64,000 bases of DNA. Source: Eledone cirrhosa (lineage: Eukaryota). Shown here in pieces: positions 1-44,699 of this stretch. Under the pieces are notes generated by a model. It was not told the origin of the DNA. It saw only the letters and a program-made list of their open reading frames with translations, and made no database searches. The DNA lies in assembly GCA_964016885.1 (NCBI GenBank), contig OZ024740.1:341620001-341684000 (forward strand), read 5' to 3'. Position 1 is the stretch's first letter; every line of letters starts with the position of its first letter. Both the position numbers and the translations under genes were made by a program.

Positions 1-470
1 GCAAGTTTGATCTATTATAATCCATGCAATGACTCAGAGGCTGGCCCAATGCTGTTGATCACACAAATGCATGACATAGATAAAAAGAAAAAAGATAACA
101 TTCATATCCATTTCTACTCTCTTTAGTTTATGTCAATGTCCTTCTTCAGTCTTTGAAATATAATGACTGTGACTATCTAGTCAGTTAGCTGCAGTCAGAG
201 ATGGAAATTTGACAGAAATGGTTTATGTAAAGGAAACTGGAGAATCAGTAATAGTCTTAACATCCTGTGCTGTATGAAACTGCATTAACAAGACATTCTT
301 AACAAAAAGCAAACAAAAAACTACACTATGACTGCATCACATTGAAAATTTATGTATTTTCTGTAATGTTGCAAACTTTCATGAAGATTTGTCTAATAGT
401 AAAGATACTACAAGCATTTGAATTAACAAACCCACTTTTAGATATTTTCTATTAAATGATTACAGTATAT

Positions 471-1217
471 ATAAGTATGTATACGTACATACATATATGT
501 ATACAAACGTATATATATATACATACATGCACACATATATATATGTACGTATGGATTCACCGGCTTAATTCACGGCTTAATACGGGATGTTTGTTTACAA
601 AACACCGAGCATTATAATAAATGTTCGGTGAATCCATACGTACATATATATATGTGTGCATGTATGTATATATATATACATACTACTGTACGTCTGTATA
701 CATATATGTATGTACGTATACATACTTATATTTAAGTAACAGCCGTACTAAGAGTGGGAAATGAAATTTCCTTTTATTTTTTTCCGTTTTATCGTTTTCG
801 GTGCACCCGGCCGATTAACCCACTCGATATGCAAATTAGGCTGCTCAGCTGTTAATATGCATAAGAAAGTATATACTTTCAGATGTTCAATCATCTGGCA
901 GGAAGGTATACATTGCTGACGATAGCTAATAAGCTTGAAACTAGTACAGCGTTCCTTTGTCAGTGTTGAACAAACGAGCAACGATGGTTGCTGGACACTA
1001 CGGCTTAATACGGAATGTTTGTTTACAAACACACTGAGCATTATAATAAATGTTCGGTGAATCCATATGTACATATATATATGTGTGCATGTATGTATAT
1101 ATAAATATATACATACTACTGTACGTCTGTATACATATATGTATGTACGTATACATATTTATATTTAAGTAACAGCCGTACTAAGAGTGGGAAATGAAAT
1201 TTTGTTTCATTTTTTCC
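471..1217 (+). mobile_element. Penelope-pLTR/retrozyme-like insertion: inverted 5' segment plus partial tandem repeat with a hammerhead motif, flanked by a 13-bp direct repeat
   Basis: gattacagtatat occurs at 458-470 and 1218-1230. 471-562 is the reverse complement of ~626-730. 573-785 is repeated at 1001-1217 (offset 428). A hammerhead core lies at 911-951. Confidence 0.7.
911..951 (+). ncRNA. Minimal type I hammerhead ribozyme motif
   Basis: cattg-CTGACGA-t-agct-aata-agct-t-GAAA-CTAG-TA-cagcg. Helix II is agct/agct, helix III is palindromic ACTAGT, the cleavage triplet is GUA (944-946), and helix I is imperfect. Confidence 0.65.
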
Positions 1218-1467
1218 GATTACAGTATATTAAGAGTTAAACTAGTGTGTTTGTGTTGAACTCGATCAGTTTTGACAAGAGATGTTCCAGTTGTTTGAAC
1301 AATAGAACAGCCTGCTCATGAGAATGTGTAAGTGGCTGAGCATTCCACCGAAACATGCAACATTAATGTAGTTTTCAGGACCTCTATTGGCCATAATGAC
1401 AAGTGCTTCAGTTGATTGATCTATGGGACAAATTGGTTGTGAAATTAATAGACATGTGTATCCTTAA

Positions 1468-2561: not shown

Positions 2562-2775
2562 TATAATTAATTACAACAGTGGCATATACAGGTACTTAAG
2601 TTTCATTGGGTTATATACCTCACCTCATTCAGTTTGTTATATAAAAAAGATGGCTACTCTCACTGTTAATTGGAGTGGGAGTAGCCATCTTTTTTATATA
2701 GCAGGTGGAATGAGTTGGGTTTATAACCCAACAAAACTTAAGTACGTGTATATGTCACTGTTGTAACTAATTATA
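2562..2775. mobile_element. Fold-back palindrome with a degenerate hammerhead motif in each arm
   Basis: The ~100-bp arms are reverse complements. Right arm: gaatgag-ttgggtt-tat-aacccaa-c-aaaac-TTAA-GTA. Left arm (minus): ctgaatgag...GAAAC-TTAA-GTA-cctgtata. Helix III palindrome is ACTTAAGT. Confidence 0.6.
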
Positions 2776-3448: not shown

Positions 3449-5252
3449 ATATAGAGGCATTAAATTAATCGACCAGGTCATGAAGGTCACAGAAAAAGTA
3501 ATAGCGCAACTAATAGAGAGAGAATTGACCTAGATGAAATGCAGTTCGGGTTTGTGTCAGGTAAAAGTACCACAGACGCTCTTTTCATTGTACGACAACT
3601 ACAGGAGAAGTACCTAGCTAAAAGTAAACCCCTATACTTAGCTTTTGTCGACTTGGAGAAAGCCTTCGACAGAGTCCCCCATTCCATTATCTAGTGGGTT
3701 CTTAGAAAACTAGGTGTTGATGAATGGCTTGTGAGAGCTATACAAGCCATGTATAAAGAAACAGTCAGCAAGGTTAGAATTAACAACAAATATAGTGAAG
3801 AGTTTAGCGTAAAAGTTGGTGTTCATCAGGGCTCCGTTCTTAGCCCCCTACTATTTATTATTGCCCTTCAGGCTATAACAGTGGAGTTCAAGACCGGCTG
3901 CCCATGGGAACTCCTATACGCAGATGATCTAACGCTCATAGCTGAATCAATGGCCGAACTAGAGAAGAAATTCCAAACATGGAAGCATGGCCTAGAAGCA
4001 AAAGGCCTTAAAATTAACCTGTCTAAGACTAAAGTTCTAGTTTGTAGGAAGGAAAATAGGGCGCCGGTCCCATCCGGGAAATGGCCATACTCAGTGTGTA
4101 GGAAAGGAGTAGGTAGAAACTCCATTTTATGTCCCAAATGCAAAGTATGGGTGCATAAAAGATGTAGTGGAATCACAGGTAAGCTAACTAAGAACATAGA
4201 TTTTATATGTGGCCGGTGCTCTGGTGCAATAAGTAGCAGCAAGTGCTCACAGAATACTAGCTCATTCCATTGCACAGATGGTTCTATAGAAATAGTGGAC
4301 AGCTTCCGTTACCTGGGTGACAAAATCAGCAGGGGGGGGGGGTGCTCTGAAAGTACAGTAGCTAGAGTCAGAACTGGATGGAAAAAGTTCAGAGAGCTTA
4401 TACCACTATTAGCCGCTAAAGGGTTCTCCCTAAAAATGAAAGGCAGGTTGTATGATGCCTGCATACGAACAGCAATGTTGCATAGCAGTGAGACCTGGGC
4501 ATTGTGTGGAGAGGATATACGCAGACTGGAGAGGAACGAAGCTTGCATGCTCCGCTGGATGTGTAATAGTAATATACGTGAACGGCAAAGCATAAATGAA
4601 CTAAGGGAAAAATTAGAAATAAGAGGGATCAGATGTTGTTTACTCGAGAGAAGACTACGTTGGTATGGTCACGTGATGCGCATGAAAGACGACAGCTGTA
4701 TAAAAAAGTGCAGGGCAATAAAAATAGACGGTAGCCACGGAGTAGGCAGACCCAGAAAAACCTGGGACAACTTGATAAATTCTGACCTCACACACTCTCC
4801 AAGACAATGTCACTGGACCGAGATCTTTGGCGCTACACAGTAATACAGAAATACAGAAGCCCCGCCTTACCTAAGTACAAAGTGAAACCTACTACAGTCA
4901 GTAGGCACCTCTAACAAAATACTCCCCCGTCCCACTACCCACACCCCATCCACACCACCCCTTTCAATGTAAAGTTATGTTGGTACCACAACATCCAGCC
5001 CGAAACAAATGAGGTCGTGTAGGTGTCACGACAAAAAAACACACAGTCCACGCTGTAATGTGGCCGTGTAGGTAACACGGTAAAAACCTCCCAGTTCACA
5101 CTGTAAACATGGTTGGTGTTAGGAAGGGCATCCAGCCATAGAAAACCCGCCAGACAGTCCTATGCGAGCAAGACAACCACTCTTGCCTCAGTGGGAAAAC
5201 TCCCGTCCAAACCCATGCAAGCGTGGAACATTGACGTTAAACGATGATGATG
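3449..5252 (+). mobile_element. 5'-truncated RTE-clade LINE (RT with embedded PHD-type finger), (GAT)n tail
   Basis: Translates YRGIKLIDQVMK, QFGF, FVDLEKAFD, GVHQGSVLSP, LLYADD, FRYLG and LRWYGHV. There is an in-frame stop near 3692. The 3' UTR ends ...gacgttaaacgatgatgatga. Confidence 0.92.
3731..4843 (+). pseudogene. RTE reverse transcriptase fragment with C4HC3 finger (first Cys mutated to Tyr)
   Basis: ORF track 370 aa with the YADD motif and YSVC..CPKC..H..C..CGRC. Confidence 0.88.
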
Positions 5253-10227: not shown

Positions 10228-13200
10228 GATGTTGATGGTGATAGTGATGATGCCTATTGTTGTCTAGTCTAACAACCACCGATGTTGATGGTGATAGTGA
10301 TGATGCCTATTGCTGTCTAGTCTAACAGCCACCGATGTTGATGGTGATAGTGATGATGCCTATTGCTGTCTAGTCTAACAGCCACTGGTGTTGATGGTGA
10401 TAGTGATGATGCCTATTGCTGTCTAGTCTAACAGCCACAGGTGTTGATGGTGATAGTGATGATGCCTATTGTTGTCTAGTCTAACAGCCACAGGTGTTGA
10501 TGGTGATAGTGATGATGCCTATTGTTGTCTAGTCTAACAGCCACTGGTGTTGATGGTGATAGTGATGATGCCTATTGCTGTCTAGTCTAACAGCCACCGA
10601 TGTTGATGGTGATAGTGATGATGCCTATTGCTGTCTAGTCTAACAGCCACTGGTGTTGATGGTGATAGTGATGATGCCTATTGTTGTCTAGTCTAACAGC
10701 CACAGGTGTTGATGGTGATAGTGATGATGCCTATTGTTGTCTAGTCTAACAGCCACAGGTGTTGATGGTGATAGTGATGATGCCTATTGCTGTCTAGTCT
10801 AACAGCCACAGGTGTTGATGGTGATAGTGATGATGCCTATTGTTGTCTAGTCTAACAGCCACAGGTGTTGATGGTGATAGTGATGATGCCTATTGCTGTC
10901 TAGTCTAACAGCCACTGGTGTTGATGGTGATAGTGATGATGCCTATTGCTGTCTAGTCTAACAGCCACAGGTGTTGATGGTGATAGTGATGATGCCTATT
11001 GTTGTCTAGTCTAACAGCCACAGGTGTTGATGGTGATAGTGATGATGCCTATTGTTGTCTAGTCTAACAGCCACCGATGTTGATGGTGATAGTGATGATG
11101 CCTATTGCTGTCTAGTCTAACAGCCACAGGTGTTGATGGTGATAGTGATGATGCCTATTGTTGTCTAGTCTAACAGCCACCGATGTTGATGGTGATAGTG
11201 ATGATGCATATTGCTGTCTAGTCTAACAGCCACAGGTGTTGATGGTGATAGTGATGATGCCTATTGTTGTCTAGTCTAACAGCCACAGGTGTTGATGGTG
11301 ATAGTGATGATGCCTATTGTTGTCTAGTCTAACAGCCACAGGTGTTGATGGTGATAGTGATGATGCCTATTGTTGTCTAGTCTAACAGCCACTGGTGTTG
11401 ATGGTGATAGTGATGATGCCTATTGCTGTCTAGTCTAACAGCCACCGATGTTGATGGTGATAGTGATGATGCCTATTGTTGTCTAGTCTAACAGCCACTG
11501 GTGTTGATGGTGATAGTGATGATGCCTATTGTTGTCTAGTCTAACAGCCACTGGTGTTGATGGTGATAGTGATGATGCCTATTGCTGTCTAGTCTAACAG
11601 CCACTGGTGTTGATGGTGATAGTGATGATGCCTATTGTTGTCTAGTCTAACAGCCACTGGTGTTGATGGTGATAGTGATGATGCCTATTGCTGTCTAGTC
11701 TAACAGCCACTGGTGTTGATGGTGATAGTGATGATGCCTATTGTTGTCTAGTCTAACAGCCACTGGTGTTGATGGTGATAGTGATGATGCCTATTGTTGT
11801 CTAGTCTAACAGCCACTGGTGTTGATGGTGATAGTGATGATGCCTATTGTTGTCTAGTCTAACAGCCACTGGTGTTGATGGTGATAGTGATGATGCCTAT
11901 TGCTGTCTAGTCTAACAGCCACTGGTGTTGATGGTGATAGTGATGATGCCTATTGTTGTCTAGTCTAACAGCCACAGGTGTTGATGGTGATAGTGATGAT
12001 GCCTATTGCTGTCTAGTCTAACAGCCACAGGTGTTGATGGTGATAGTGATGATGCCTATTGTTGTCTAGTCTAACAGCCACCGGTGTTGATGGTGATAGT
12101 GATGATGCCTATTGTCGTCTAGTCTAACAGCCACTGGTGTTGATGGTGATAGTGATGATGCCTATTGCTGTCTAGTCTAACAGCCACAGGTGTTGATGGT
12201 GATAGTGATGATGCCTATTGCTGTCTAGTCTAACAGCCACAGGTGTTGATGGTGATAGTGATGATGCCTATTGCTGTCTAGTCTAACAGCCACCGGTGTT
12301 GATGGTGATAGTGATGATGCCTATTGTTGTCTAGTCTAACAGCCACTGGTGTTGATGGTGATAGTGATGATGCCTATTGTTGTCTAGTCTAACAGCCACT
12401 GGTGTTGATGGTGATAGTGATGATGCCTATTGCTGTCTAGTCTAACAGCCACTGGTGTTGATGGTGATAGTGATGATGCCTATTGTTGTCTAGTCTAACA
12501 GCCACTGGTGTTGATGGTGATAGTGATGATGCCTATTGCTGTCTAGTCTAACAGCCACCGATGTTGATGGTGATAGTGATGATGCCTATTGCTGTCTAGT
12601 CTAACAGCCACCGATGTTGATGGTGATAGTGATGATGCCTATTGCTGTCTAGTCTAACAGCCACCGGTGTTGATGGTGATAGTGATGATGCCTATTGCTG
12701 TCTAGTCTAACAGCCACTGGTGTTGATGGTGATAGTGATGATGCCTATTGCTGTCTAGTCTAACAGCCACCGATGTTGATGGTGATAGTGATGATGCCTA
12801 TTGTTGTCTAGTCTAACAGCCACCAGTGTTGATGGTGATAGTGATGATGCCTATTGTTGTCTAGTCTAACAGCCACTGGTGTTGATGGTGATAGTGATGA
12901 TGCCTATTGCTGTCTAGTCTAACAGCCACCGATGTTGATGGTGATAGTGATGATGCCTATTGTTGTCTAGTCTAACAGCCACCAGTGTTGATGGTGATAG
13001 TGATGATGCCTATTGTTGTCTAGTCTAACAGCCACTGGTGTTGATGGTGATAGTGATGATGCCTATTGCTGTCTAGTCTAACAGCCACCGATGTTGATGG
13101 TGATAGTGATGATGCCTATTGTTGCCTAGTCTAACAGCCACCAGTGTTGATGGTGATAGTGATGATGCCTATTGTTGTCTAGTCTAACAGCCACTGGTGT

Positions 13201-16200
13201 TGATGGTGATAGTGATGATGCCTATTGTTGTCTAGTCTAACAGCCACTGGTGTTGATGGTGATAGTGATGATGCCTATTGTTGTCTAGTCTAACAGCCAC
13301 TGGTGTTGATGGTGATAGTGATGATGCCTATTGTTGTCTAGTCTAACAGCCACCGATGTTGATGGTGATAGTGATGATGCCTATTGTTGTCTAGTCTAAC
13401 AGCCACCAGTGTTGATGGTGATAGTGATGATGCCTATTGTTGTCTAGTCTAACAGCCACCGGTGTTGATGGTGATAGTGATGATGCCTATTGTTGTCTAG
13501 TCTAACAGCCACTGGTGTTGATGGTGATAGTGATGATGCCTATTGTTGTCTAGTCTAACAGCCACCGATGTTGATGGTGATAGTGATGATGCCTATTGTT
13601 GTCTAGTCTAACAGCCACTGGTGTTGATGGTGATAGTGATGATGCCTATTGTTGTCTAGTCTAACAGCCACTGGTGTTGATGGTGATAGTGATGATGCCT
13701 ATTGTTGTCTAGTCTAACAGCCACAGGTGTTGATGGTGATAGTGATGATGCCTATTGTTGTCTAGTCTAACAGCCACTGGTGTTGATGGTGATAGTGATG
13801 ATGCCTATTGCTGTCTAGTCTAACAGCCACAGGTGTTGATGGTGATAGTGATGATGCCTATTGCTGTCTAGTCTAACAGCCACCGATGTTGATGGTGATA
13901 GTGATGATGCCTATTGCTGTCTAGTCTAACAGCCACCGATGTTGATGGTGATAGTGATGATGCCTATTGCTGTCTAGTCTAACAGCCACAGGTGTTGATG
14001 GTGATAGTGATGATGCCTATTGTTGTCTAGTCTAACAGCCACTGGTGTTGATGGTGATAGTGATGATGCCTATTGCTGTCTAGTCTAACAGCCACTGGTG
14101 TTGATGGTGATAGTGATGATGCCTATTGTTGTCTAGTCTAACAGCCACTGGTGTTGATGGTGATAGTGATGATGCCTATTGCTGTCTAGTCTAACAGCCA
14201 CAGGTGTTGATGGTGATAGTGATGATGCCTATTGTTGTCTAGTCTAACAGCCACAGGTGTTGATGGTGATAGTGATGATGCCTATTGTTGTCTAGTCTAA
14301 CAGCCACAGGTGTTGATGGTGATAGTGATGATGCCTATTGTTGTCTAGTCTAACAGCCACAGGTGTTGATGGTGATAGTGATGATGCCTATTGCTGTCTA
14401 GTCTAACAGCCACTGGTGTTGATGGTGATAGTGATGATGCCTATTGTTGTCTAGTCTAACAGCCACAGATGTTGATGGTGATAGTGATGATGCCTATTGC
14501 TGTCTAGTCTAACAGCCACCGATGTTGATGGTGATAGTGATGATGCCTATTGTTGTCTAGTCTAACAGCCACCGATGTTGATGGTGATAGTGATGATGCC
14601 TATTGCTGTCTAGTCTAACAGCCACCGATGTTGATGGTGATAGTGATGATGCCTATTGTTGTCTAGTCTAACAGCCACCGATGTTGATGGTGATAGTGAT
14701 GATGCCTATTGCTGTCTAGTCTAACAGCCACCGATGTTGATGGTGATAGTGATGATGCCTATTGTTGTCTAGTCTAACAGCCACCGATGTTGATGGTGAT
14801 AGTGATGATGCCTATTGCTGTCTAGTCTAACAGCCACCGATGTTGATGGTGATAGTGATGATGCCTATTGCTGTCTAGTCTAACAGCCACTGGTGTTGAT
14901 GGTGATAGTGATGATGCCTATTGTTGTCTAGTCTAACAGCCACTGGTGTTGATGGTGATAGTGATGATGCCTATTGCTGTCTAGTCTAACAGCCACCGGT
15001 GTTGATGGTGATAGTGATGATGCCTATTGCTGTGTAGTCTAACAGCCACAGGTGTTGATGGTGATAGTGATGATGCCTATTGCTGTCTAGTCTAACAGCC
15101 ACCGGTGTTGATGGTGATAGTGATGATGCCTATTGTTGTCTAGTCTAACAGCCACCGGTGTTGATGGTGATAGTGATGATGCCTATTGCTGTCTAGTCTA
15201 ACAGCCACCGGTGTTGATGGTGATAGTGATGATGCCTATTGCTGTCTAGTCTAACAGCCACCGGTGTTGATGGTGATAGTGATGATGCCTATTGTTGTCT
15301 AGTCTAACAGCCACAGGTGTTGATGGTGATAGTGATGATGCCTATTGTTGTCTAGTCTAACAGCCACTGGTGTTGATGGTGATAGTGATGATGCCTATTG
15401 CTGTCTAGTCTAACAGCCACAGGTGTTGATGGTGATAGTGATGATGCCTATTGTTGTCTAGTCTAACAGCCACAGGTGTTGATGGTGATAGTGATGATGC
15501 CTATTGTTGTCTAGTCTAACAGCCACTGGTGTTGATGGTGATAGTGATGATGCCTATTGCTGTCTAGTCTAACAGCCACAGGTGTTGATGGTGATAGTGA
15601 TGATGCCTATTGTTGTCTAGTCTAACAGCCACAGGTGTTGATGGTGATAGTGATGATGCCTATTGTTGTCTAGTCTAACAGCCACTGGTGTTGATGGTGA
15701 TAGTGATGATGCCTATTGCTGTCTAGTCTAACAGCCACAGGTGTTGATGGTGATAGTGATGATGCCTATTGTTGTCTAGTCTAACAGCCACTGGTGTTGA
15801 TGGTGATAGTGATGATGCCTATTGCTGTCTAGTCTAACAGCCACCGGTGTTGATGGTGATAGTGATGATGCCTATTGCTGTGTAGTCTAACAGCCACTGG
15901 TGTTGATGGTGATAGTGATGATGCCTATTGCTGTCTAGTCTAACAGCCACCGGTGTTGATGGTGATAGTGATGATGCCTATTGCTGTCTAGTCTAACAGC
16001 CACCGGTGTTGATGGTGATAGTGATGATGCCTATTGCTGTCTAGTCTAACAGCCACCGGTGTTGATGGTGATAGTGATGATGCCTATTGCTGTCTAGTCT
16101 AACAGCCACAGGTGTTGATGGTGATAGTGATGATGCCTATATCTGTCTAGTCTAACAGGCACCGGTGTTGATGGTGATAGTGATGATGCCTATTGTTGTC

Positions 16201-19200
16201 TAGTCTAACAGCCACAGGTGTTGATGGTGATAGTGATGATGCCTATTGCTGTCTAGTCTAACAGCCACCGGTGTTGATGGTGATAGTGATGATGCCTATT
16301 GTTGTCTAGTCTAACAGCCACCGGTGTTGATGGTGATAGTGATGATGCCTATTGTTGTCTAGTCTAACAGCCACTGGTGTTGATGGTGATAGTGATGATG
16401 CCTATTGCTGTCTAGTCTAACAGCCACTGGTGTTGATGGTGATAGTGATGATGCCTATTGTTGTCTAGTCTAACAGCCACCGGTGTTGATGGTGATAGTG
16501 ATGATGCCTATTGCTGTCTAGTCTAACAGCCACCGGTGTTGATGGTGATAGTGATGATGCCTATTGTTGTCTAGTCTAACAGCCACAGGTGTTGATGGTG
16601 ATAGTGATGATGCCTATTGCTGTCTAGTCTAACAGCCACCGGTGTTGATGGTGATAGTGATGATGCCTATTGCTGTCTAGTCTAACAGCCACCGGTGTTG
16701 ATGGTGATAGTGATGATGCCTATTGCTGTCTAGTCTAACAGCCACCGGTGTTGATGGTGATAGTGATGATGCCTATTGCTGTCTAGTCTAACAGCCACCG
16801 GTGTTGATGGTGATAGTGATGATGCCTATTGTTGTCTAGTCTAACAGCCACAGGTGTTGATGGTGATAGTGATGATGCCTATTGCTGTCTAGTCTAACAG
16901 CCACCGGTGTTGATGGTGATAGTGATGATGCCTATTGTTGTCTAGTCTAACAGCCACAGGTGTTGATGGTGATAGTGATGATGCCTATTGCTGTCTAGTC
17001 TAACAGCCACCGGTGTTGATGGTGATAGTGATGATGCCTATTGTTGTCTAGTCTAACAGCCACAGGTGTTGATGGTGATAGTGATGATGCCTATTGTTGT
17101 CTAGTCTAACAGCCACTGGTGTTGATGGTGATAGTGATGATGCCTATTGCTGTCTAGTCTAACAGCCACTGGTGTTGATGGTGATAGTGATGATGCCTAT
17201 TGTTGTCTAGTCTAACAGCCACCGGTGTTGATGGTGATAGTGATGATGCCTATTGTTGTCTAGTCTAACAGCCACAGGTGTTGATGGTGATAGTGATGAT
17301 GCCTATTGTTGTCTAGTCTAACAGTCACTGGTGTTGATGGTGATAGTGATGATGCCTATTGTTGTCTAGTCTAACAGCCACCGGTGTTGATGGTGATAGT
17401 GATGATGCCTATTGTTGTCTAGTCTAACAGCCACAGGTGTTGATGGTGATAGTGATGATGCCTATTGTTGTCTAGTCTAACAGCCACCGGTGTTGATGGT
17501 GATAGTGATGATGCCTATTGTTGTCTAGTCTAACAGCCACCGGTGTTGATGGTGATAGTGATGATGCCTATTGCTGTCTAGTCTAACAGCCACCGGTGTT
17601 GATGGTGATAATGATGATGCCTATTGTTGTCTAGTCTAACAGCCACAGGTGTTGATGGTGATAGTGATGATGCCTATTGTTGTCTAGTCTAACAGCCACC
17701 GATGTTGATGGTGATAGTGATGATGCCTATTGCTGTCTAGTCTAACAGCCACCGGTGTTGATGGTGATAGTGATGATGCCTATTGCTGTCTAGTCTAACA
17801 GCCACCGGTGTTGATGGTGATAGTGATGATGCCTATTGCTGTCTAGTCTAACAGCCACTGGTGTTGATGGTGATAGTGATGATGCCTATTGTTGTCTAGT
17901 CTAACAGCCACTGGTGTTGATGGTGATAGTGATGATGCCTATTGCTGTCTAGTCTAACAGCCACAGGTGTTGATGGTGATAGTGATGATGCCTATTGCTG
18001 TCTAGTCTAACAGCCACAGGTGTTGATGGTGATAGTGATGATGCCTATTGCTGTCTAGTCTAACAGCCACAGGTGTTGATGGTGATAGTGATAATGCCTA
18101 TTGCTGTCTAGTCTAACAGCCACCGGTGTTGATGGTGATAGTGATGATGCCTATTGCTGTCTAGTCTAACAGCCACCGGTGTTGATGGTGATAGTGATGA
18201 TGCCTATTGTTGTCTAGTCTAACAGCCACAGGTGTTGATGGTGATAGTGATGATGCCTATTGCTGTCTAGTCTAACAGCCACTGGTGTTGATGGTGATAG
18301 TGATGATGCCTATTGCTGTCTAGTCTAACAGCCACTGGTGTTGATGGTGATAGTGATGATGCCTATTGCTGTCTAGTCTAACAGCCACTGGTGTTGATGG
18401 TGATAGTGATGATGCCTATTGTTATCTAGTCTAACAGCCACTGGTGTTGATGGTGATAGTGATGATGCCTATTGTTGTCTAGTCTAACAGCCACTGGTGT
18501 TGATGGTGATAGTGATGATGCCTATTGCTGTCTAGTCTAACAGCCACAGGTGTTGATGGTGATAGTGATGATGCCTATTGTTGTCTAGTCTAACAGCCAC
18601 TGGTGTTGATGGTGATAGTGATGATGCCTATTGCTGTCTAGTCTAACAGCCACTGGTGTTGATGGTGATAGTGATGATGCCTATTGCTGTCTAGTCTAAC
18701 AGCCACAGGTGTTGATGGTGATAGTGATGATGCCTATTGTTGTCTAGTCTAACAGCCACAGGTGTTGATGGTGATAGTGATGATGCCTATTGTTGTCTAG
18801 TCTAACAGCCACTGGTGTTGATGGTGATAGTGATGATGCCTATTGTTGTCTAGTCTAACAGCCACTGGTGTTGATGGTGATAGTGATGATGCCTATTGCT
18901 GTCTAGTCTAACAGCCACAGGTGTTGATGGTGATAGTGATGATGCCTATTGTTGTCTAGTCTAACAGCCACTGGTGTTGATGGTGATAGTGATGATGCCT
19001 ATTGTTGTCTAGTCTAACAGCCACTGGTGTTGATGGTGATAGTGATGATGCCTATTGCTGTCTAGTCTAACAGCCACAGGTGTTGATGGTGATAGTGATG
19101 ATGCCTATTGTTGTCTAGTCTAACAGCCACTGGTGTTGATGGTGATAGTGATGATGCCTATTGCTGTCTAGTCTAACAGCCACCGGTGTTGATGGTGATA

Positions 19201-20244
19201 GTGATGATGCCTATTGCTGTCTAGTCTAACAGCCACTGGTGTTGATGGTGATAGTGATGATGCCTATTGCTGTCTAGTCTAACAGCCACTGGTGTTGATG
19301 GTGATAGTGATGATGCCTATTGCTGTCTAGTCTAACAGCCACTGGTGTTGATGGTGATAGTGATGATGCCTATTGCTGTCTAGTCTAACAGCCACTGGTG
19401 TTGATGGTGATAGTGATGATGCCTATTGCTGTCTAGTCTAACAGCCACAGGTGTTGATGGTGATAGTGATGATGCCTATTGTTGTCTAGTCTAACAGCCA
19501 CTGGTGTTGATGGTGATAGTGATGATGCCTATTGCTGTCTAGTCTAACAGCCACAGGTGTTGATGGTGATAGTGATGATGCCTATTGCTGTCTAGTCTAA
19601 CAGCCACAGGTGTTGATGGTGATAGTGATGATGCCTATTGCTGTCTAGTCTAACAGCCACAGGTGTTGATGGTGATAGTGATGATGCCTATTGTTGTCTA
19701 GTCTAACAGCCACTGGTGTTGATGGTGATAGTGATGATGCCTATTGCTGTCTAGTCTAACAGCCACAGGTGTTGATGGTGATAGTGATGATGCCTATTGC
19801 TGTCTAGTCTAACAGCCACAGGTGTTGATGGTGATAGTGATGATGCCTATTGCTGTCTAGTCTAACAGCCACTGGTGTTGATGGTGATAGTGATGATGCC
19901 TATTGTTGTCTAGTCTAACAGCCACCAGTGTTGATGGTGATAGTGATGATGCCTATTGCTGTCTAGTCTAACAGCCACAGGTGTTGATGGTGATAGTGAT
20001 GATGCCTATTGTTGTCTAGTCTAACAGCCACTGGTGTTGATGGTGATAGTGATGATGCCTATTGCTGTCTAGTCTAACAGCCACCGATGTTGATGGTGAT
20101 AGTGATGATGCCTATTGCTGTCTAGTCTAACAGCCACTGGTGTTGATGGTGATAGTGATGATGCCTATTGCTGTCTAGTCTAACAGCCACAGGTGTTGAT
20201 GGTGATAGTGATGATGCCTATTGCTGTCTAGTCTAACAGCCACC
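10228..20244. repeat. 53-bp tandem minisatellite array, ~189 copies
   Basis: Unit is tgtctagtctaacagccacNgRtgttgatggtgatagtgatgatgcctattgY. Identical phase recurs at 10261, 13441, 16621 and 19801 (3180 = 60 x 53). Confidence 0.98.
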
Positions 20245-21604: not shown

Positions 21605-24600
21605 AATAATAATAATAATGAAATTATTGTGTACAGTGCTCAGGTGCATTACAACTCGTCAAAGGTGCATGTATAGTGCATAGAATAATATACAAATGTC
21701 AGGGAAGTGAATAGTGTACGAGTCATGAAATACATGTGTGCTTGTGTATGGAGGGGGGACATCAGGTGTTGTGTTGGCGAATCTCAGGAAGCATGGAGGT
21801 TTTAAAGGATGCAGTGTTTCGACAGCTAACAACTGATGCAAGTAGTTTGTTCCATGCTTCAGCAACTCTGAGCGTGAAAAAATGTTTCCGAAAGTCATGG
21901 GAACTGTGCTGTTTTCTGACTTTGTGGGCATACCCACGTGTGTTAGACACATGGAAATCAAAAAGGTACTCAGGGTTGTTGTTGGCAAGATGGTTAATAA
22001 TTTTGTGGGTGTTTACCAATTCAGTTGCCAGACGTCGGAGCTTCAATGTATCCATGCGCAGGGAAGCAAGGCGTTCAGAGTATCGTAGATGCCTGATGGA
22101 AGGTATTCGCTTGGTTGCACGTCTCTGAACAGTTTCCAGGCGGTCAATGTTCTGAGCAAGATAGGGGTTCCAGACTGGTGATGGAAATTCTAAGTGTGGC
22201 CGCACCATAGCTATATACAGCTTTAAATAGTTAGCTGGAGAGCGGCTGACAAAGGTCTTGCTGAGTGATGCTAAGACATCCTCGGCCTTCTTGGCAATTT
22301 TAGAGACATGCTTCGTCCAATGCAAATCGCTACTGACCGTAATGCCTAGGTCATGCTCACAAGAAGACTTCTTGATATTAGTGTTGTGGAGGGAGTATGT
22401 GGATGCTGGGTTTTTACTCCCAAAATGCATGGTGGTACACTTGTCAACAGCTACCTTGAGATGCCAGTCTGTGATCCATTGTTGCAATGTGTCCAGGTCA
22501 GATTGCAGGAAAAATATATAATGTTCAGGATCTGTCCTTTTATCTCAAGGTACAGCTTGATGTCATCTGCATATTTCAGTACTGTGGCATTCTTTAAGTT
22601 GGCATCTATGTCATTAATATATGCCACAAACAAAAGGGGGCCAAGAACAGATCCCTGTGGTACACCAGATGACATCTCATATGGTGAGGAATGCTGTCCT
22701 AGAACCGTGACTACCTCTCTTCGACTGAGAATGAAGGACTTCAACAAGTTAAAAAGATCATCTTTCATACCCATTGCAGAGAGTTTTGCCATAAGTCTTT
22801 TGTGTGGCACAGAATTGAAAGCTTTAGCAAAGTCAAGGTAAACAACATCCATCCGTGATCCGGGTGATGTCTTCAAGAAACTCGATAAGTTGATCACAGC
22901 AGCTGGAGTTAGAGATAAATCAAAATTGCGAGGGCCGGATAAGACTGTGAGAGTTCCAGAAGTTCCAAAGCGTTTCTCTGACACAGGATTCCATCAGTTT
23001 TGCAATGCAGCTAGTAAGACTGACTGGACGATAGTTGACAGGTGATGTGCGGTCACCCTTTTTGAACAGAGGAATAACACTGGCAGTTTTCAACTGTTCT
23101 GGAGTAGCACCGTTATTCAGACAGAATTGGAAGAAGCGTGATAGCTGGTGCAGAAGGAAGTACCCACCACGTTTGAGAAGCAGGTACGTAACACCATCAA
23201 GAGAAGGAGAGGTATGGTTGCTTTTATTTTTAAGGTGACGTCACAGCATTGCCGGTGTAAATTCCATAGTCGTAATAGTATCTGATGTCAGAGGTGGTGG
23301 AGATGGTACACTCTGGTCTTCAATAGTGAAAATGCCTGCATAGCATTCAGCAATGAGTTCTGCGCATTCCTTGGGGTCGTCAGTAACCTGGCTTGTGTGG
23401 GGATTGCGAAGAAGACCAGCTTGAGAGTGAGGCCTCTGCTTTGAGTGAACATACTTCCAGAACACCTTACTGTCAGGGCTGGTTGCTATGCGCTGCTCAA
23501 ATTGAAGCACTGCCTTTTTTGTCACCTGTTTGAGATGGTTGGATGATTTATTTCGCTTCTTCCTATTGATATCTGATTTATGCAGTTTGTACCCACGTTC
23601 AGCATTACAACGTTCTTTTCTGGCAAGATGGACTGCTGCAGTCTCCCAAATTGCAATTTTAGGATGTTTTTTCTGCTTACGTGGCACCAATACTGCACAT
23701 GCTGTCCATATTGAGCTCAGGATGTTCTGGAGTACTGTGTTGACATCTCCAGAGTCGTAGAACTCAAGCCAGTTTGGACGTTGCAACTCAGTGCAGTAAC
23801 AGTTACAGTCTGCTTTATTCCAGTCAAAGTGAGCAGTTTGGAGATGGTTGTGGTTTTTGTTACTGCCCAATGAGGGATAGATTGGCAATGATCATAGCAT
23901 GATCAGAGTCACCTAAAGGTTCCTCAGTAGTAATACTAATAACCATTTCAGGAGTAGTGGTGAAGAGTAGGTCCAAGGTGTTGTCACCTCTTGTTGGGGA
24001 GGGGACTACTTAGGACCAGTTCGAGTCCAGTACTAGCTCAAGGAAGTCATTTGCACATTGCGGCCAACGAAAGGTTTCCCAGTCAATCTCAGGGTGATTG
24101 AAGTCCCCTGCAATAAAAACATAAGTGGCTGTTTGCCTGTCAACAACTCTGAGGATATCACAAAGTTGAGTGTCCTGATGGTAATTTTGAGGACGGTAAA
24201 CAACTCCAAGTAGCAGTGTTGACATGGTCATACGTATATCGCAGAAAAATACCTCTTGTTGCGATTGGTTCAAATAAACACAAGGAATTGCCGAAAAATT
24301 TGACCGAACGTAGACCATTACACCACCACCACCACGATTAATGCGGTCTTTACGAAACAAGTTGTAGCCAGTTATGCTGAAAACCCCATCACAAAGTAAG
24401 GAATGTGCCCATATTTCCGTGACTGTAATGAAGTCAGGGTTGATACTTTTGACGTAGGAGTTAAAAAGATGTATCTTATTGCATAGACTACGTGCATTCA
24501 AGGACAACAATTTGTACCTTGATTCCAGTCTATGATTATGTGCAGGGGATGGCAGGTTGTTCTGATTTAGTTTCCCAGAGTTTTTTCAGTTTTTTTATTG

Positions 24601-28069: not shown

Positions 28070-28200
28070 GTATCCCAGGTTCTATCGGGAGTAACCACAG
28101 TAAAAAGGTACTCAATACATAGCAGAGTATAAATATTTAATATAGAAATGGCTTCTGACGATTTCCTCTGAATGAAACAGTTCTAGTCCTGTAGAAGCCA

Positions 28201-28208
<8 letters not shown>
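28070..28208. mobile_element. Hammerhead-bearing fold-back element in (TA)n
   Basis: atggctt-CTGACGA-tttcctctgaat-GAAAC-agttctagtcct-GTA-gaagccat (28148-28201). TTGAGTACC lies on the minus strand at 28107-28115. Confidence 0.6.
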
Positions 28209-34485: not shown

Positions 34486-36113
34486 TCATCATCATCATCA
34501 TCATCATCGTTTAACGTCTGTGTTCCACGCTTGCATGGGTTTGGACGGGAGTTTTCCCACTTGAGGCAAGAGTGATTGTCTTGCTCGCATAGGACTGTCT
34601 GGCGGGTTTTCTACAGCTGGATGCCCTTCCTAACACCAACCACATTTACAGTGTGGGCTGGGAGGTTTTTACCGTGTTGCCTACACGGCCACATTACAGC
34701 GTGGACTGTGTGTTTTTTTTGTCGTGACACCTACACGATCTCATTTGTTTCGGCCTGGATGGTGTGGCACCAATATAACTTTACATTGAAAGGGGCGGTG
34801 TGGATGGGGTGGGGGTGGTGGGACGGGGGAGTATTTTGTTAGAGATGCCTACTGACTGTAGTAGGTTTTACTTTGTATTTAGGTAAGGCGGGTCTTCTCT
34901 ATTACTGAGTACCGCCAAAGGTCTCGGTCCAGTGACATTGTCTTGGAGAGGTGTAAGTGTGTGAGGTCGGAATTTATCAGCTCGTCCCAGGTTTTTCTGG
35001 GTCTGCCTACTCCGTAGCTACCGTCTATCTTTATTGCCCTGCACTTTGTTATACAGCTGTCGTCTTTCATGCGCATCACGTGACCATACCAACGTAGCCT
35101 TCTCTCGAGTAAACAACATCTGATCCCTCTTATTTCTAATTTTTTCCTTAGTTCGCTTATGCTTTGCCATTCACGTATATTACTATTACACATCCAGCGG
35201 AGCATGCAAGCTTCGTTCCTCTCCAGTCTGCGTATATCCTCTGCACACAATGCCCAGGTCTCACTGCCATGCAACATTGCTGTTCGTATGCAGGCATCAT
35301 ACAACCTGCCTTTCATTTTTAGGGAGAACCCTTTAGCGGCTAATAGTGGCATAAGCTCTCTGAACTTTTTCCATCCAGTTCTGACTCTAGCTACTGTACT
35401 TTCAGAGCACCCTCCCCCACTGCTGATTTTGTCACCCAGGTAACGGAAGCTGTCCACTATTTCTATAGAACCCTCTGCGCAATTGAAAGAGCTAGTATTT
35501 TGTGGGCACTTGCTGCTACTTATTGCACCAGAGCACCGGCCACATGTAAAATCTATGTTCTTAGTTAGCTTACCTGTGATCCCACTACATCTTTTATGCA
35601 CCCATACTTTGCATTTGGGACATAAAATGAAGTTTCTGCCTACTCCTTTCCTACACACTGAGCATGGCCATTTCCCAGATGGGACCAGTGCCCTATTTTC
35701 CTTCCTACAAACTAGAACTTTAGTCTTAGCCAGGTTAATTTTAAGGCCTTTTGATTCTAGGCCGTGCTTCCATGTTTGGAATTTCTTCTCTAGCTCGGCC
35801 ATTGATTCAGCTATGAGCATTAGATCATCTGTGTATAGGAGTTCCCATGGGCAGCCGGTCTTGAACTCCACTGTTATAGCCTGAAGGGCAATAATAAATA
35901 GTAGGGGGCTAAGAACAGAGCCCTGATGAACACCAACTTTTACACTAAACTCTTCACTATGTTCGTTGTTAATTCTAACCTTGCTGACTGTTTCTTTATA
36001 CATGGCTTGTATAGCTCTCACAAGCCATTCGTCAACACCTAGTTTTCTAAGAGCCCACCAGATAATGGAACGGGGGACTCTGTCGAAGGCTTTCTCCAAG
36101 TCAACAAAAGCTA

Positions 36114-36116
<3 letters not shown>
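34486..36116 (-). mobile_element. Young 5'-truncated RTE LINE
   Basis: Uninterrupted 406-aa ORF and complete 3' UTR with (GAT)n tail. Closely matches 3640-5252. Confidence 0.95.
34879..36099 (-). CDS. RTE reverse transcriptase C-terminal portion with intact C4HC3 PHD-type finger (5'-truncated, YADD>YTDD)
   Basis: EKAFD..GVHQGSVLSP..LLYTDD..CSVC-x10-CPKC-x4-H-x2-C-x14-CGRC..FRYLG..LRWYGHV. Confidence 0.8.
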   Translation of the reverse strand: MEKAFDRVPRSIIWWALRKLGVDEWLVRAIQAMYKETVSKVRINNEHSEEFSVKVGVHQGSVLSPLLFIIALQAITVEFKTGCPWELLYTDDLMLIAESMAELEKKFQTWKHGLESKGLKINLAKTKVLVCRKENRALVPSGKWPCSVCRKGVGRNFILCPKCKVWVHKRCSGITGKLTKNIDFTCGRCSGAISSSKCPQNTSSFNCAEGSIEIVDSFRYLGDKISSGGGCSESTVARVRTGWKKFRELMPLLAAKGFSLKMKGRLYDACIRTAMLHGSETWALCAEDIRRLERNEACMLRWMCNSNIREWQSISELRKKLEIRGIRCCLLERRLRWYGHVMRMKDDSCITKCRAIKIDGSYGVGRPRKTWDELINSDLTHLHLSKTMSLDRDLWRYSVIEKTRLT

Positions 36117-36153
<37 letters not shown>

Positions 36154-36159
<6 letters not shown>

Positions 36160-42414: not shown

Positions 42415-43185
42415 ATGATGATGATGATATATATATATGTATGTATGTATATATGTGTATAAAAAAGATGAACACATAGATACAATAAAACAAAATCATA
42501 TTAATGTCATGCTTGTTAGAAAAGGAAAAGGAATATTTCAACGTATCAGATATTAGTCCTTCACCGGGAAAGAGCAAAGTTCTGAGAAAGAGGAGGCTGC
42601 AAGGTTGGGAAAAAAAGTTTTATGAAGATGGGTGAGGAGGGCAGGCAATGCGGAGAATCTGAGTCTATCAATATTAGTATTTTGTGGTGTCTGAATTAGT
42701 CCTGTAGTGTCTGGTGCTGAATTTGAAATTTAGCATTCTCACCCATGTTTTGTAAAATGTGTACCATGTTCTGTACAATATATATGGGCCCTTGTAGCAT
42801 ATAATGAACATGTTATTATCAATGTTATATAATAGTGGCAGAAAAAATAGTAAAACACACTCACTGTTTGATTTGGTTTTCACTTCAGCATATTCTTATA
42901 TATTTGCTTCAGTAAAGTTTTATATTTCTATAAATAATTTAGCTGGCAATCAATATTTATCATTGATTGACCAACAGTTAAAAATATAAATATAAATATA
43001 GTTTTTCAAAGTTCTTTCATCATACATATCTGTGACATCGTCAGTGATTTTCATGTCTCCATGTTTCCTCCCATTGTGTTCCTATGTTTTTTATTTTATT
43101 TATTTATTTTTTAATTTTATTTTTATTATCATTGTTGTAGTGAAATTATTTATTATACCATTTTCTTTTCTTTTTGGTTCTTCAG

Positions 43186-43947
43186 GTTTGCAAGTTACAA
43201 CTGTTAAAATCACAAGGATGCCTTTAAATAAATTGAACAAGCTTATATTTCTTTCTATTACATTATTTGTGACTGTAGTCAGTATCCAGAGTGTGGACTT
43301 GGCAGATCATGACATCATTAAAAAAGGAAGAGATGTCATCAAAAATTTATATCAACGTTTTTCAGGAGAAGAAGTTGACCTTGTTTTTATACTCGACCGA
43401 TCAGCTAGTATTCCACCTCGTGGCTGGAGTTCTATGATAACATTTATACGTTCCATTCTTGAACATTTCTCAGTGACTGGAGAGCACACAAGAGTTGCTG
43501 TAATAACATATGGCTCCCATGTCAGTTTGGAAATTAATGATTTAAATGAAAAACACACAACAAAATGCTCTCTTATGAAACAAATAAAACAAAGACTAGA
43601 GAAAAAGTTAATGGCTGGTTATACTGCCACATATGATGCTTTGAAAAGAGCACAAGAAATTCTTTTAAATTCAAGACGAAATGCCAAAAAAGCCGTATTT
43701 GTTTTAACTGATGGAAAATCAAATGTTGGCCCAAACCCTGTACGGGCTTCATTGGAAATACGTTCTCTTCGCTGGAATCCCAAGTGGAATTCTTCAGCAT
43801 ATGGCCCTCAAGTTGAGATCTATGCATTTGGCATCAAAGATGCCAATTTACCTGAGTTGAAATACATTGCGTCACGATTGAAAAACCATACGTTCTTCAT
43901 TCCAGATTTTACAACTTTCTCACTTCTTGCTAGACAGCTTCATAATG
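43186..43947 (+). CDS. SVEP1: SVEP1/polydom-like gene, first coding exon (ATG 43218): signal peptide and vWA domain
   Basis: Polypyrimidine ttcag acceptor. MPLNKLNKLIFLSITLFVTVVS, VDLVFILDRSAS (MIDAS DxSxS), TRVAVITY, LTDGKSN and VEIYAFGI. Donor G|gtgagt. Confidence 0.85.
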
Positions 43948-44699
43948 GTGAGTACATTTATGTCTGTGTCAATATTTATGTTTATGAGGGGGAAGGATGG
44001 GTGGACTTTCTAAGTGTGTTTATGTATGTATGTGTGCATGTGTGTATGCATGATTATGTAATTATATATTTGCGTGTACACTCTGTAAAGTGGTTGGTGC
44101 TTGGTAAGTCATCCAACAGTGGAGACCATGCCAAAAACTGGAACTACGAGGGAAATTTGGTCATCCAACCCATTTAAGAAGGAGATAATTCTGCATAAGA
44201 ACTGACTTGAATCATCATAATCTGTCCAACATATGCCAGCATAGAAAGTTGACGAAAGATGACAATGATGATGATGACGATGAGGAGGAGGATGATAATG
44301 GTGGTGGTGATTATGATGATGATAATGAGGAGGAGGAGGAAGGGGAGGAGGATATTGATGATATGGCAATAGTATGCAACATACACAGGTGTATGTATGT
44401 GTGTTTATGTGTGGTAACCACTTCCCTATGACTAACTTTTCTCATCTTGATATCAGCAATGATACATCTCTGTTGTTCTGACTAAATGCTCACCCCCCTC
44501 TCCAACTACTCATCGAGATCAACTTTTGAGGTTGATAAATAAATGACTGCTCCAGAATTGTGGATTGTCTGAATTGCTAGGGCATTAAATGAAATGTCTT
44601 GTGTTATTTGTTCTGACTCTTTGCATTCTGAATTTAAATCTCATTGTGATTTAGTTGAGTGGTAGACTTAATCTGCCACCTGGTTAACACCACTCTGGT

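What the first reader, a model, noticed from the sequence alone, without database searches (positions are those of the whole stretch)
458..1230. Retrozyme-like insertion: 428-bp unit, ~1.5 copies, inverted head and 13-bp target duplication
Seen: the direct repeat gattacagtatat brackets an inverted ~90-bp head and a partial tandem repeat (offset 428) containing one hammerhead, with no ORF. Known: animal non-LTR retrozymes are tandem units of a few hundred bp that spread through circular RNAs. Inference: a greater-than-unit-length copy made from a circular or tandem RNA template.
Basis: partly seen in the sequence, partly recalled or inferred. Interest (0 to 1): 0.72.

Follow-up and report, generated by a model that had tools for sequence, protein, structure and literature searches.

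The report
Penelope-mobilised hammerhead retrozyme copy
This is one copy of a protein-less 428-base repeat, present thousands of times in this animal genome, that carries a predicted self-cutting RNA motif and has the mirror-image, one-tailed ends of Penelope-type jumping genes, so it was likely pasted in by a borrowed Penelope enzyme; this kind of element is known, but its copies keep an unusually clear record of how that enzyme likely works.

Summary
Observation confirmed: 13-bp duplication (458, 1218), inverted head, 1.5 tandem units at offset 428, one type I hammerhead, no recognisable protein. The duplication is real: 5 of 8 paralogues of the older repeat it interrupts carry the site once. 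The 34-nt hammerhead core has 5,653 exact genomic matches. Copies are not randomly permuted: 207 of 237 free 3' ends lie at two fixed sites about 58 nt apart, and 55 of 58 head-to-head inserts use one site per arm (25 of 25 in a younger 466-bp sister family). This is the Penelope-like element (PLE) inverted-repeat-plus-tail signature. Arms run through the ribozyme cut site, so the template was uncut multimer or circle. Private variants shared by all units (12, against 1 register-specific, sister family) favour re-copying of one monomer, but 9 of 32 arms mix subfamilies and long arrays grew later as DNA. No RNA data; no coding partner with matching sequence found. Verdict: new member of a known kind, an animal non-LTR retrozyme, i.e. 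a non-autonomous PLE. This scan noted the same class before, in this genome and others.

The parts
458..470 (+). Left copy of the 13-bp target-site duplication (last 2-5 nt also match the element's short end)
   Evidence: single copy in 5 of 8 paralogues of the interrupted repeat
469..562 (-). Inverted arm, 5'-truncated, ending at the short (tail-less) fixed 3' site; equals unit 626-731 with a 12-nt deletion
561..571 (+). Inversion junction: CG shared by both arms, then a 9-nt copy of unit 573-581 and two extra bases
   Evidence: read
572..999 (+). One full 428-bp unit (start is only this copy's 5' truncation point); predicted multi-hairpin RNA, z -8.6 against shuffles (inflated by the AT-rich palindrome)
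731..789 (+). Interval between the two family-wide fixed 3' sites (short about 731, long about 789): the PLE-type tail, here in the internal unit
828..835 (+). Octamer ATGCAAAT, inside a 12-nt block kept in the 67%-identical sister family; possible snRNA-type promoter part, untested
895..963 (+). Type I hammerhead, predicted cut 946/947; this copy has A at 912 where 92% of copies have G, breaking one helix I pair
1000..1218 (+). Partial second unit, ending at the long (tailed) fixed 3' site
1218..1230 (+). Right copy of the 13-bp target-site duplication
255..1240 (.). Older repeat (about 77% identity family) into whose right end the element inserted; occupies about 255-470 and 1231-1240

Best explanation
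This is a decayed copy of an abundant non-coding, hammerhead-bearing repeat (an animal non-LTR retrozyme) whose ends match Penelope-like element insertions, so it was likely inserted by a PLE reverse transcriptase-endonuclease acting in trans. Likely mechanism: the enzyme, probably a dimer, cuts both strands of AT-rich DNA about 13 bp apart (duplication shown; cutting inferred). The two free DNA ends prime reverse transcription inside the RNA, one at the short site and one at the long site (pairing of ends shown, 80 of 83; priming inferred from PMC11167929). Both copies usually come from one RNA or one source (shared haplotype shown). Copying runs through the uncut ribozyme (shown), so the template was a circle or an uncut multimer; a re-copied monomer circle probably made many multi-unit arms, and a mixed multimer or template switch made others (inferred). 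The two truncated cDNAs are then joined head to head through a few shared or added bases (junctions shown; repair step inferred).
For: Fixed ends: 102 short + 105 long of 237 free 3' ends in 148 loci; 73 head-to-head pairs, 58 with both ends fixed: 55 short+long, 2 long+long, 1 short+short, p 1e-13; only 2 tail-to-tail neighbours. Sister family, 34 loci: 61 of 62 arms end at the homologous sites, 25 of 25 both-fixed pairs are short+long. Targets: 59 of 96 short ends run into 8 or more nt of TA; of 55 short+long inserts 38 sit in pure TA, 10 show no repeat, 7 show 9-17-bp duplications, control 3 of 158. Same source: only 10 of 39 arm pairs differ in subfamily against 72% at random; 28 of 29 sister-family inserts have one main haplotype against 18%. 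The layout (inverted pLTR, tail on one end, 8-10-bp duplication) is described for PLEs in PMC3846280 and PMC8557442; two internal start sites bounding the tail, cutting and extension of both strands and a predicted dimer in PMC11167929. PLE-type GIY-YIG frames are abundant here (10,595 candidates, 150 scored); three families carry hammerheads downstream of the frame. For a re-copied monomer: 12 rare variants in 9 inserts are in every covering unit, 1 is register-specific.
Against: No coding partner with this terminal sequence: none in 50 GIY-YIG loci (8 families) or beside arms in 148 loci. No RNA evidence of transcription, cleavage or a circle. The tails (58 and about 70 nt) are longer than the 30-40 nt in the papers read. 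3 of 58 pairs break the short+long rule and 15 of 73 pairs have one end elsewhere. Against a monomer circle as the only template: 9 of 32 multi-unit arms mix subfamilies, locus L241 has register-specific variants, and 7 variants mark only a subset of units. Rfam does not score the hammerhead, and in this copy an inactive fold is predicted to be more stable (-16.5 against -8.3 kcal/mol).
Confidence: 0.85

Rival explanations
1. Same PLE machinery, but the template is only ever a linear, uncut read-through transcript of tandem arrays; circles, if made, are a side product.
For: Mixed arms, 9 of 32; register-specific variants at L241; long arrays exist as possible sources; ribozyme cleavage was not needed for insertion in vitro (PMC11167929).
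Against: Variants shared by all units outnumber register-specific ones 12 to 1, and single-unit variants (133) far outnumber subset ones (7), so most arms were multi-unit and uniform when inserted. The recurrent variants of the 50-unit array were not seen in the same-haplotype inserts listed (compared by eye). Uniform source arrays would give the same pattern, so this is not decisive.
Confidence: 0.3
2. The insert is the stump of an autonomous PLE (terminal repeats only), as described for truncated Penelope copies, not a self-standing non-autonomous family.
For: Inverted repeat plus tail plus hammerhead is the PLE terminal layout; a partner below about 2% of copies would be missed in this sample.
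Against: Units join seamlessly to units, up to about 50 in a row; no arm in 148 loci continues into a PLE frame (the two frames inspected, L138 and L170, are separate insertions); the hammerhead is the canonical retrozyme type with helix III, not the minimal PLE type.
Confidence: 0.08
3. Random rolling-circle insertion: a circle is primed anywhere, giving circularly permuted copies, with no PLE-type ends.
For: Arms exceed one unit and cross the cut site; 5' ends are scattered.
Against: 207 of 237 3' ends are at two sites and pair short+long; the same holds in the sister family.
Confidence: 0.03
4. A DNA-level satellite or fold-back rearrangement, with a chance 13-mer.
For: Long arrays show higher-order repeats typical of unequal exchange; the window locus itself is duplicated.
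Against: Dispersed copies on many contigs, fixed ends, and a single target site in paralogues. DNA exchange explains the long arrays only.
Confidence: 0.02

Closest known systems
Animal non-LTR retrozymes (Cervera and de la Pena 2020, PMC7229834; read: passages and parts 3-4 of 6; supplement not seen)
   Same: Non-coding AT-rich unit of 150-450 bp, tandem copies, canonical type I hammerhead with short helix III, thousands of copies (mussel about 5,000), duplication longer than 4 bp, a U-U pair at the base of helix II as in axolotl HHR_Amex2; PLEs proposed as the mobiliser.
   Different: Circles were shown there and are untested here. The parts read give no map of insertion ends; here the ends are fixed and pair short+long.
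Retrozymes as non-autonomous PLEs (Li, Clavereau, Pollet 2026, bioRxiv 10.64898/2026.07.22.740005; read: parts 1-3 of 5; supplements not seen)
   Same: Same conclusion; monomers, dimers and long arrays; later expansion by unequal crossover suggested.
   Different: Their evidence is co-occurrence and pLTR homology in Xenopus; here it is insertion anatomy, and no homologous pLTR was found. By their definition (two complete hammerheads in tandem) this copy is not an active one.
Endonuclease-bearing Penelope-like elements, Neptune type most likely (PMC3846280 and PMC8557442, passages; PMC11167929, parts 1-3 of 4; PMC4209133, part 1 of 4)
   Same: Partial tandem, inverted 5'-truncated arm, tail at one end, short duplication, TA-microsatellite bias, hammerhead in the terminal repeat, two internal start sites.
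   Different: No coding frame; tail 58-70 nt against 30-40 nt; canonical rather than minimal hammerhead; which family supplies the enzyme is unknown.
Newt satellite 2 (snRNA-type promoter; seen only as a cited statement in PMC2220036, passages; the primary paper PMC308520 was not held; the octamer detail is recalled)
   Same: Tandem hammerhead repeat; an octamer is kept here between families 67% alike.
   Different: No promoter activity or proximal element was tested here.

Membership tests
Animal non-LTR retrozyme | Non-coding unit of a few hundred bp in tandem, GC under 50% | tested here: met
   428-bp unit, no Pfam hit, arrays up to about 50 units
Animal non-LTR retrozyme | Canonical type I hammerhead in each unit | tested here: met
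   Core, three helices and compensatory changes; below Rfam gathering score
Animal non-LTR retrozyme | Many dispersed copies, duplication longer than 4 bp | tested here: met
   5,653 exact cores; 9-17-bp duplications in 7 of 55 inserts, most others in pure TA; empty-site proxy
Animal non-LTR retrozyme | RNA self-cleaves | not testable with these tools
   Needs an in vitro assay; 8 of 9 Xenopus dimers did not cleave in the 2026 preprint
Animal non-LTR retrozyme | Accumulates as a unit-length circular RNA | not testable with these tools
   No RNA reads were available; DNA variant patterns are indirect
Non-autonomous Penelope-like element | Partial tandem with inverted 5'-truncated arm, head to head | tested here: met
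   73 head-to-head pairs, 2 tail-to-tail, in 148 loci
Non-autonomous Penelope-like element | Two fixed 3' ends bounding a tail, present at one end of the insert | tested here: met
   55 of 58 and 25 of 25; tail longer than the published 30-40 nt
Non-autonomous Penelope-like element | AT-rich or TA-microsatellite target | tested here: met
Non-autonomous Penelope-like element | Terminal sequence shared with an autonomous PLE of the same genome | tested here: inconclusive
   None in 50 of 150 scored, of 10,595 candidate, GIY-YIG places; same helix III layout in two coding families is a resemblance only
Autonomous Penelope-like element | Frame with reverse transcriptase and GIY-YIG endonuclease | tested here: not met

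The most novel reading that the evidence does not exclude
The copies are a genomic record of the unseen steps of Penelope insertion: one enzyme dimer primes both strands of the cut target from two fixed sites on a single circular monomer RNA and rolls round it, tending to stall on either side of the folded, uncut hammerhead. This would be insertion-level evidence that retrozyme circles are the transposition intermediate, and the young 466-bp family would give a ready substrate to test it.
Probability: 0.4. Interest if true: 0.62.

Novelty: new member of a known kind. Interest (0 to 1): 0.33.

Why it matters
The class is published, and so is the PLE layout, so the locus itself is ordinary. What adds value is the measurement. 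The tail is described as 'often' or 'optionally' on one end; here the two arms take one start site each in 80 of 83 inserts of two families and usually share a haplotype, which turns the in vitro two-site, two-strand result into a specific in vivo prediction. How retrozyme circles enter genomes is stated as open in both retrozyme papers read; variant sharing among units of young inserts is a way to test it from DNA. I did not find this pairing count or a cephalopod non-LTR retrozyme in seven full-text searches (one search gave 0 papers); supplements and Repbase/Dfam entries were not seen and may already hold the family.

Tried and rejected
RNA: no RNA holder listed among 5 runs; contigs of 4 runs of unrecorded kind showed only family-level variation. 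No read-level test of the empty site was obtained. The second genomic copy of this locus (751 kb away, 99.3-99.8% over at least 19 kb on both sides) carries the same insert, so it is no empty site. Partner hunt: no match of unit 735-1065 to PLE terminal regions in 50 loci; three hits (L085, L100, L101) were read as independent insertions, and a 21/24-nt match about 700 nt upstream of the endonuclease domain of one family as chance (E 0.07 or worse); frames near arms (L138, L170 inspected; 9 more loci judged from coordinates) are separate elements. A search with window 700-765 found nothing because the words are too common. Long arrays as rolling-circle products: rejected; L053 and L153 are near-perfect ABAB with A and B 3-4% apart, and the 50-unit sister array has 7- and 8-unit periods. 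5' pile-up at the cut site: not seen (3 against 3.0; sister 1 against 0.7). 5' clusters at 778 and 885 and the gap at 970-995 were judged alignment artefacts (T run, 8-bp deletion, reference edge). Haplotype switch points in mixed arms could not be placed at the cut site. A TATA/start-site reading of the 908-922 cluster was considered and left untested. Dropped before the counts: 26 of 174 loci (overlapping fetches, duplicates of this locus, segmental duplicates, arrays cut by locus edges); the long array L154-L156 was handled apart. The last table failed to print. Sequence look-up in earlier findings gave nothing.

Full report
Observation. The 13-mer stands only at 458 and 1218 of the window; 466/469-562 is the reverse complement of 626-731/734 with a 12-nt deletion; 572-789 repeats at 1000-1221. 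The hammerhead core lies at 916-946 with a bulged helix I from 895 to 963. Rfam does not score it, but 6 of 13 helix pairs change on both sides among 6 related sequences, chiefly in one sister family. This copy has lost one helix I pair (A912, G in 92% of 248 segments). The only long frame has no Pfam match.

Host and copy number. The genome is 3.0 Gb in 1,796 contigs, AT- and microsatellite-rich; a cephalopod is likely (my inference, echoed by earlier scan notes, not tested). The 34-nt core matches exactly 5,653 times, the reversed control never. Segments differ from the family majority by a median 2.8%. The locus exists twice, 751 kb apart, 99.3-99.8% alike over at least 19 kb, both filled.

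The duplication is real. The left flank is an older repeat that runs up to the insert. Five of 8 paralogues read through one 13-mer-like stretch straight into the first bases of the right flank; one more does so with a diverged site; two do not continue. In other copies the target is mostly TA microsatellite; where it is not, duplications are 9-17 bp (7 of 55 inserts; control 3 of 158).

Ends. In 148 non-redundant loci from four searches, 207 of 237 free 3' ends fall at about 731 (102) or about 789 (105). Of 73 head-to-head pairs, 58 have both ends fixed, and 55 of these are one short plus one long (p 1e-13); 15 have one end elsewhere. The window copy obeys the rule: short end on the inverted arm, long end on the direct arm. 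A 466-bp sister family, about 67% identical and much younger (98-99% between copies), has the homologous sites: 61 of 62 arms, and 25 of 25 both-fixed pairs. Papers describe this layout for Penelope-like elements: an inverted terminal repeat, a tail on one end, a short duplication (PMC3846280, PMC8557442), and, in vitro, reverse transcription from two internal sites that bound the tail, on both target strands, by a predicted dimer (PMC11167929). The copies are therefore not randomly permuted; they are PLE-type insertions. All samples were top-scoring or first-listed hits, so they lean towards longer, better-kept copies.

Template. 119 of 206 fixed-end arms exceed one unit; 63 of 70 arms from searches that did not require the ribozyme pass its cut site; 5' ends show no excess there (3 of 122, 3.0 expected). 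A cut linear monomer copied once cannot be the template. The two arms usually share a source: 10 of 39 pairs differ in subfamily against 72% at random, and 28 of 29 sister inserts have one main haplotype against 18% (five with single-marker exceptions). In the sister family 12 rare variants (9 inserts; 3 of the 12 are haplotype markers) are in every covering unit, 1 is register-specific, 7 mark a subset, 133 are single and 6 uninformative. A variant can spread to all units only if one unit is copied repeatedly, at this insertion or an earlier one, which favours a circle (inference; about 65% that circles contribute). Against a circle alone: 9 of 32 arms of the window's family mix subfamilies and L241 shows a two-state multimer. 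The window copy is uninformative: 3 differences and no shared rare allele in 122 compared sites. Long arrays grew later as DNA.

5' ends near the ribozyme. There is a weak excess on both sides of the core: 18 against 6.8 at 908-922 (scan p 0.005, driven by two of four samples; 5 against 3.1 in the other two) and 18 against 10.0 at 951-969 (driven by the other two). The homologous windows in the sister family hold 9 of 49 ends against 3.3 (p 0.005), though I had seen part of those ends before the test. Stalling at helix I, perhaps in the dimeric fold, is my guess; a start site near 912 is the alternative.

Partner. PLE-type GIY-YIG frames are abundant; the 50 examined fall in 8 families, most with the zinc-finger linker of Neptune/Nematis type (clade label from PMC8557442). 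Three carry hammerheads downstream, two of them U3-A8 variants with the same short helix III layout (variant described in PMC4209133). None shares sequence with the unit. The partner is unidentified.

Comparison. It meets every sequence-level feature of an animal non-LTR retrozyme (PMC7229834) and of a non-autonomous PLE except shared terminal sequence, which is inconclusive; cleavage and circles are untested. A 2026 preprint already concludes that such retrozymes are non-autonomous PLEs, and earlier notes of this scan report sister cases (leads only). Papers were read as stated under Closest known systems; PMC9977147 was seen as passages only and added nothing decisive; no supplement was read.

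Verdict. A real, ordinary insertion of a known class; new member; interest 0.33. The residual value lies in the near-strict short+long pairing and the variant-sharing test of the circle model.

Noticed in passing
G000 loci L241-L322 (found through L236): Young 466-bp sister family (732-767 search candidates), same fold with compensatory changes, tail about 70 nt, GUU cut site; the best substrate for experiments.
   Followed up: yes
window 28095-28205: Short copy of a different hammerhead family (CUGACGA at 28155) ending in a TA tract; relatives seen at L096, L099, L106.
   Followed up: partly
G000:C1:342.36-342.38 Mb (L001, L208, L210): Near-identical second copy of the window's region, 751 kb away: recent segmental duplication or uncollapsed haplotype.
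   Followed up: partly
L154-L156; L176-L180; L314-L316: Satellite-like arrays of about 50 units; the sister-family array L314-L316 still keeps its long and short insertion ends and has 7- and 8-unit higher-order repeats.
   Followed up: partly
L061-L110: At least 8 PLE families; two (27 of 50 loci belong to them) have U3-A8 hammerheads 450-1,100 nt downstream of the endonuclease domain; frames up to 938 and 1,096 codons.
   Followed up: partly
L138 2100-2600, L015 flank: Another PLE family with a minimal hammerhead and a tail of about 58 nt; the retrozyme inserted at its TA-tract ends at two loci.
   Followed up: partly
window 10230-20243: 53-bp satellite, 189 copies, 97% matches.
   Followed up: no
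window 3695-4843 (+), 34879-36159 (-): LINE-like fragments with a reverse transcriptase followed by a PHD finger.
   Followed up: no
window 21762-24585 (-); 43002-44177 (+): Broken LINE (endonuclease and reverse transcriptase pieces); a 391-codon frame with a von Willebrand A domain, probably a host exon.
   Followed up: no
window 2562-2775: Fold-back element with nested inverted arms (58 and 44 nt), MITE-like.
   Followed up: no
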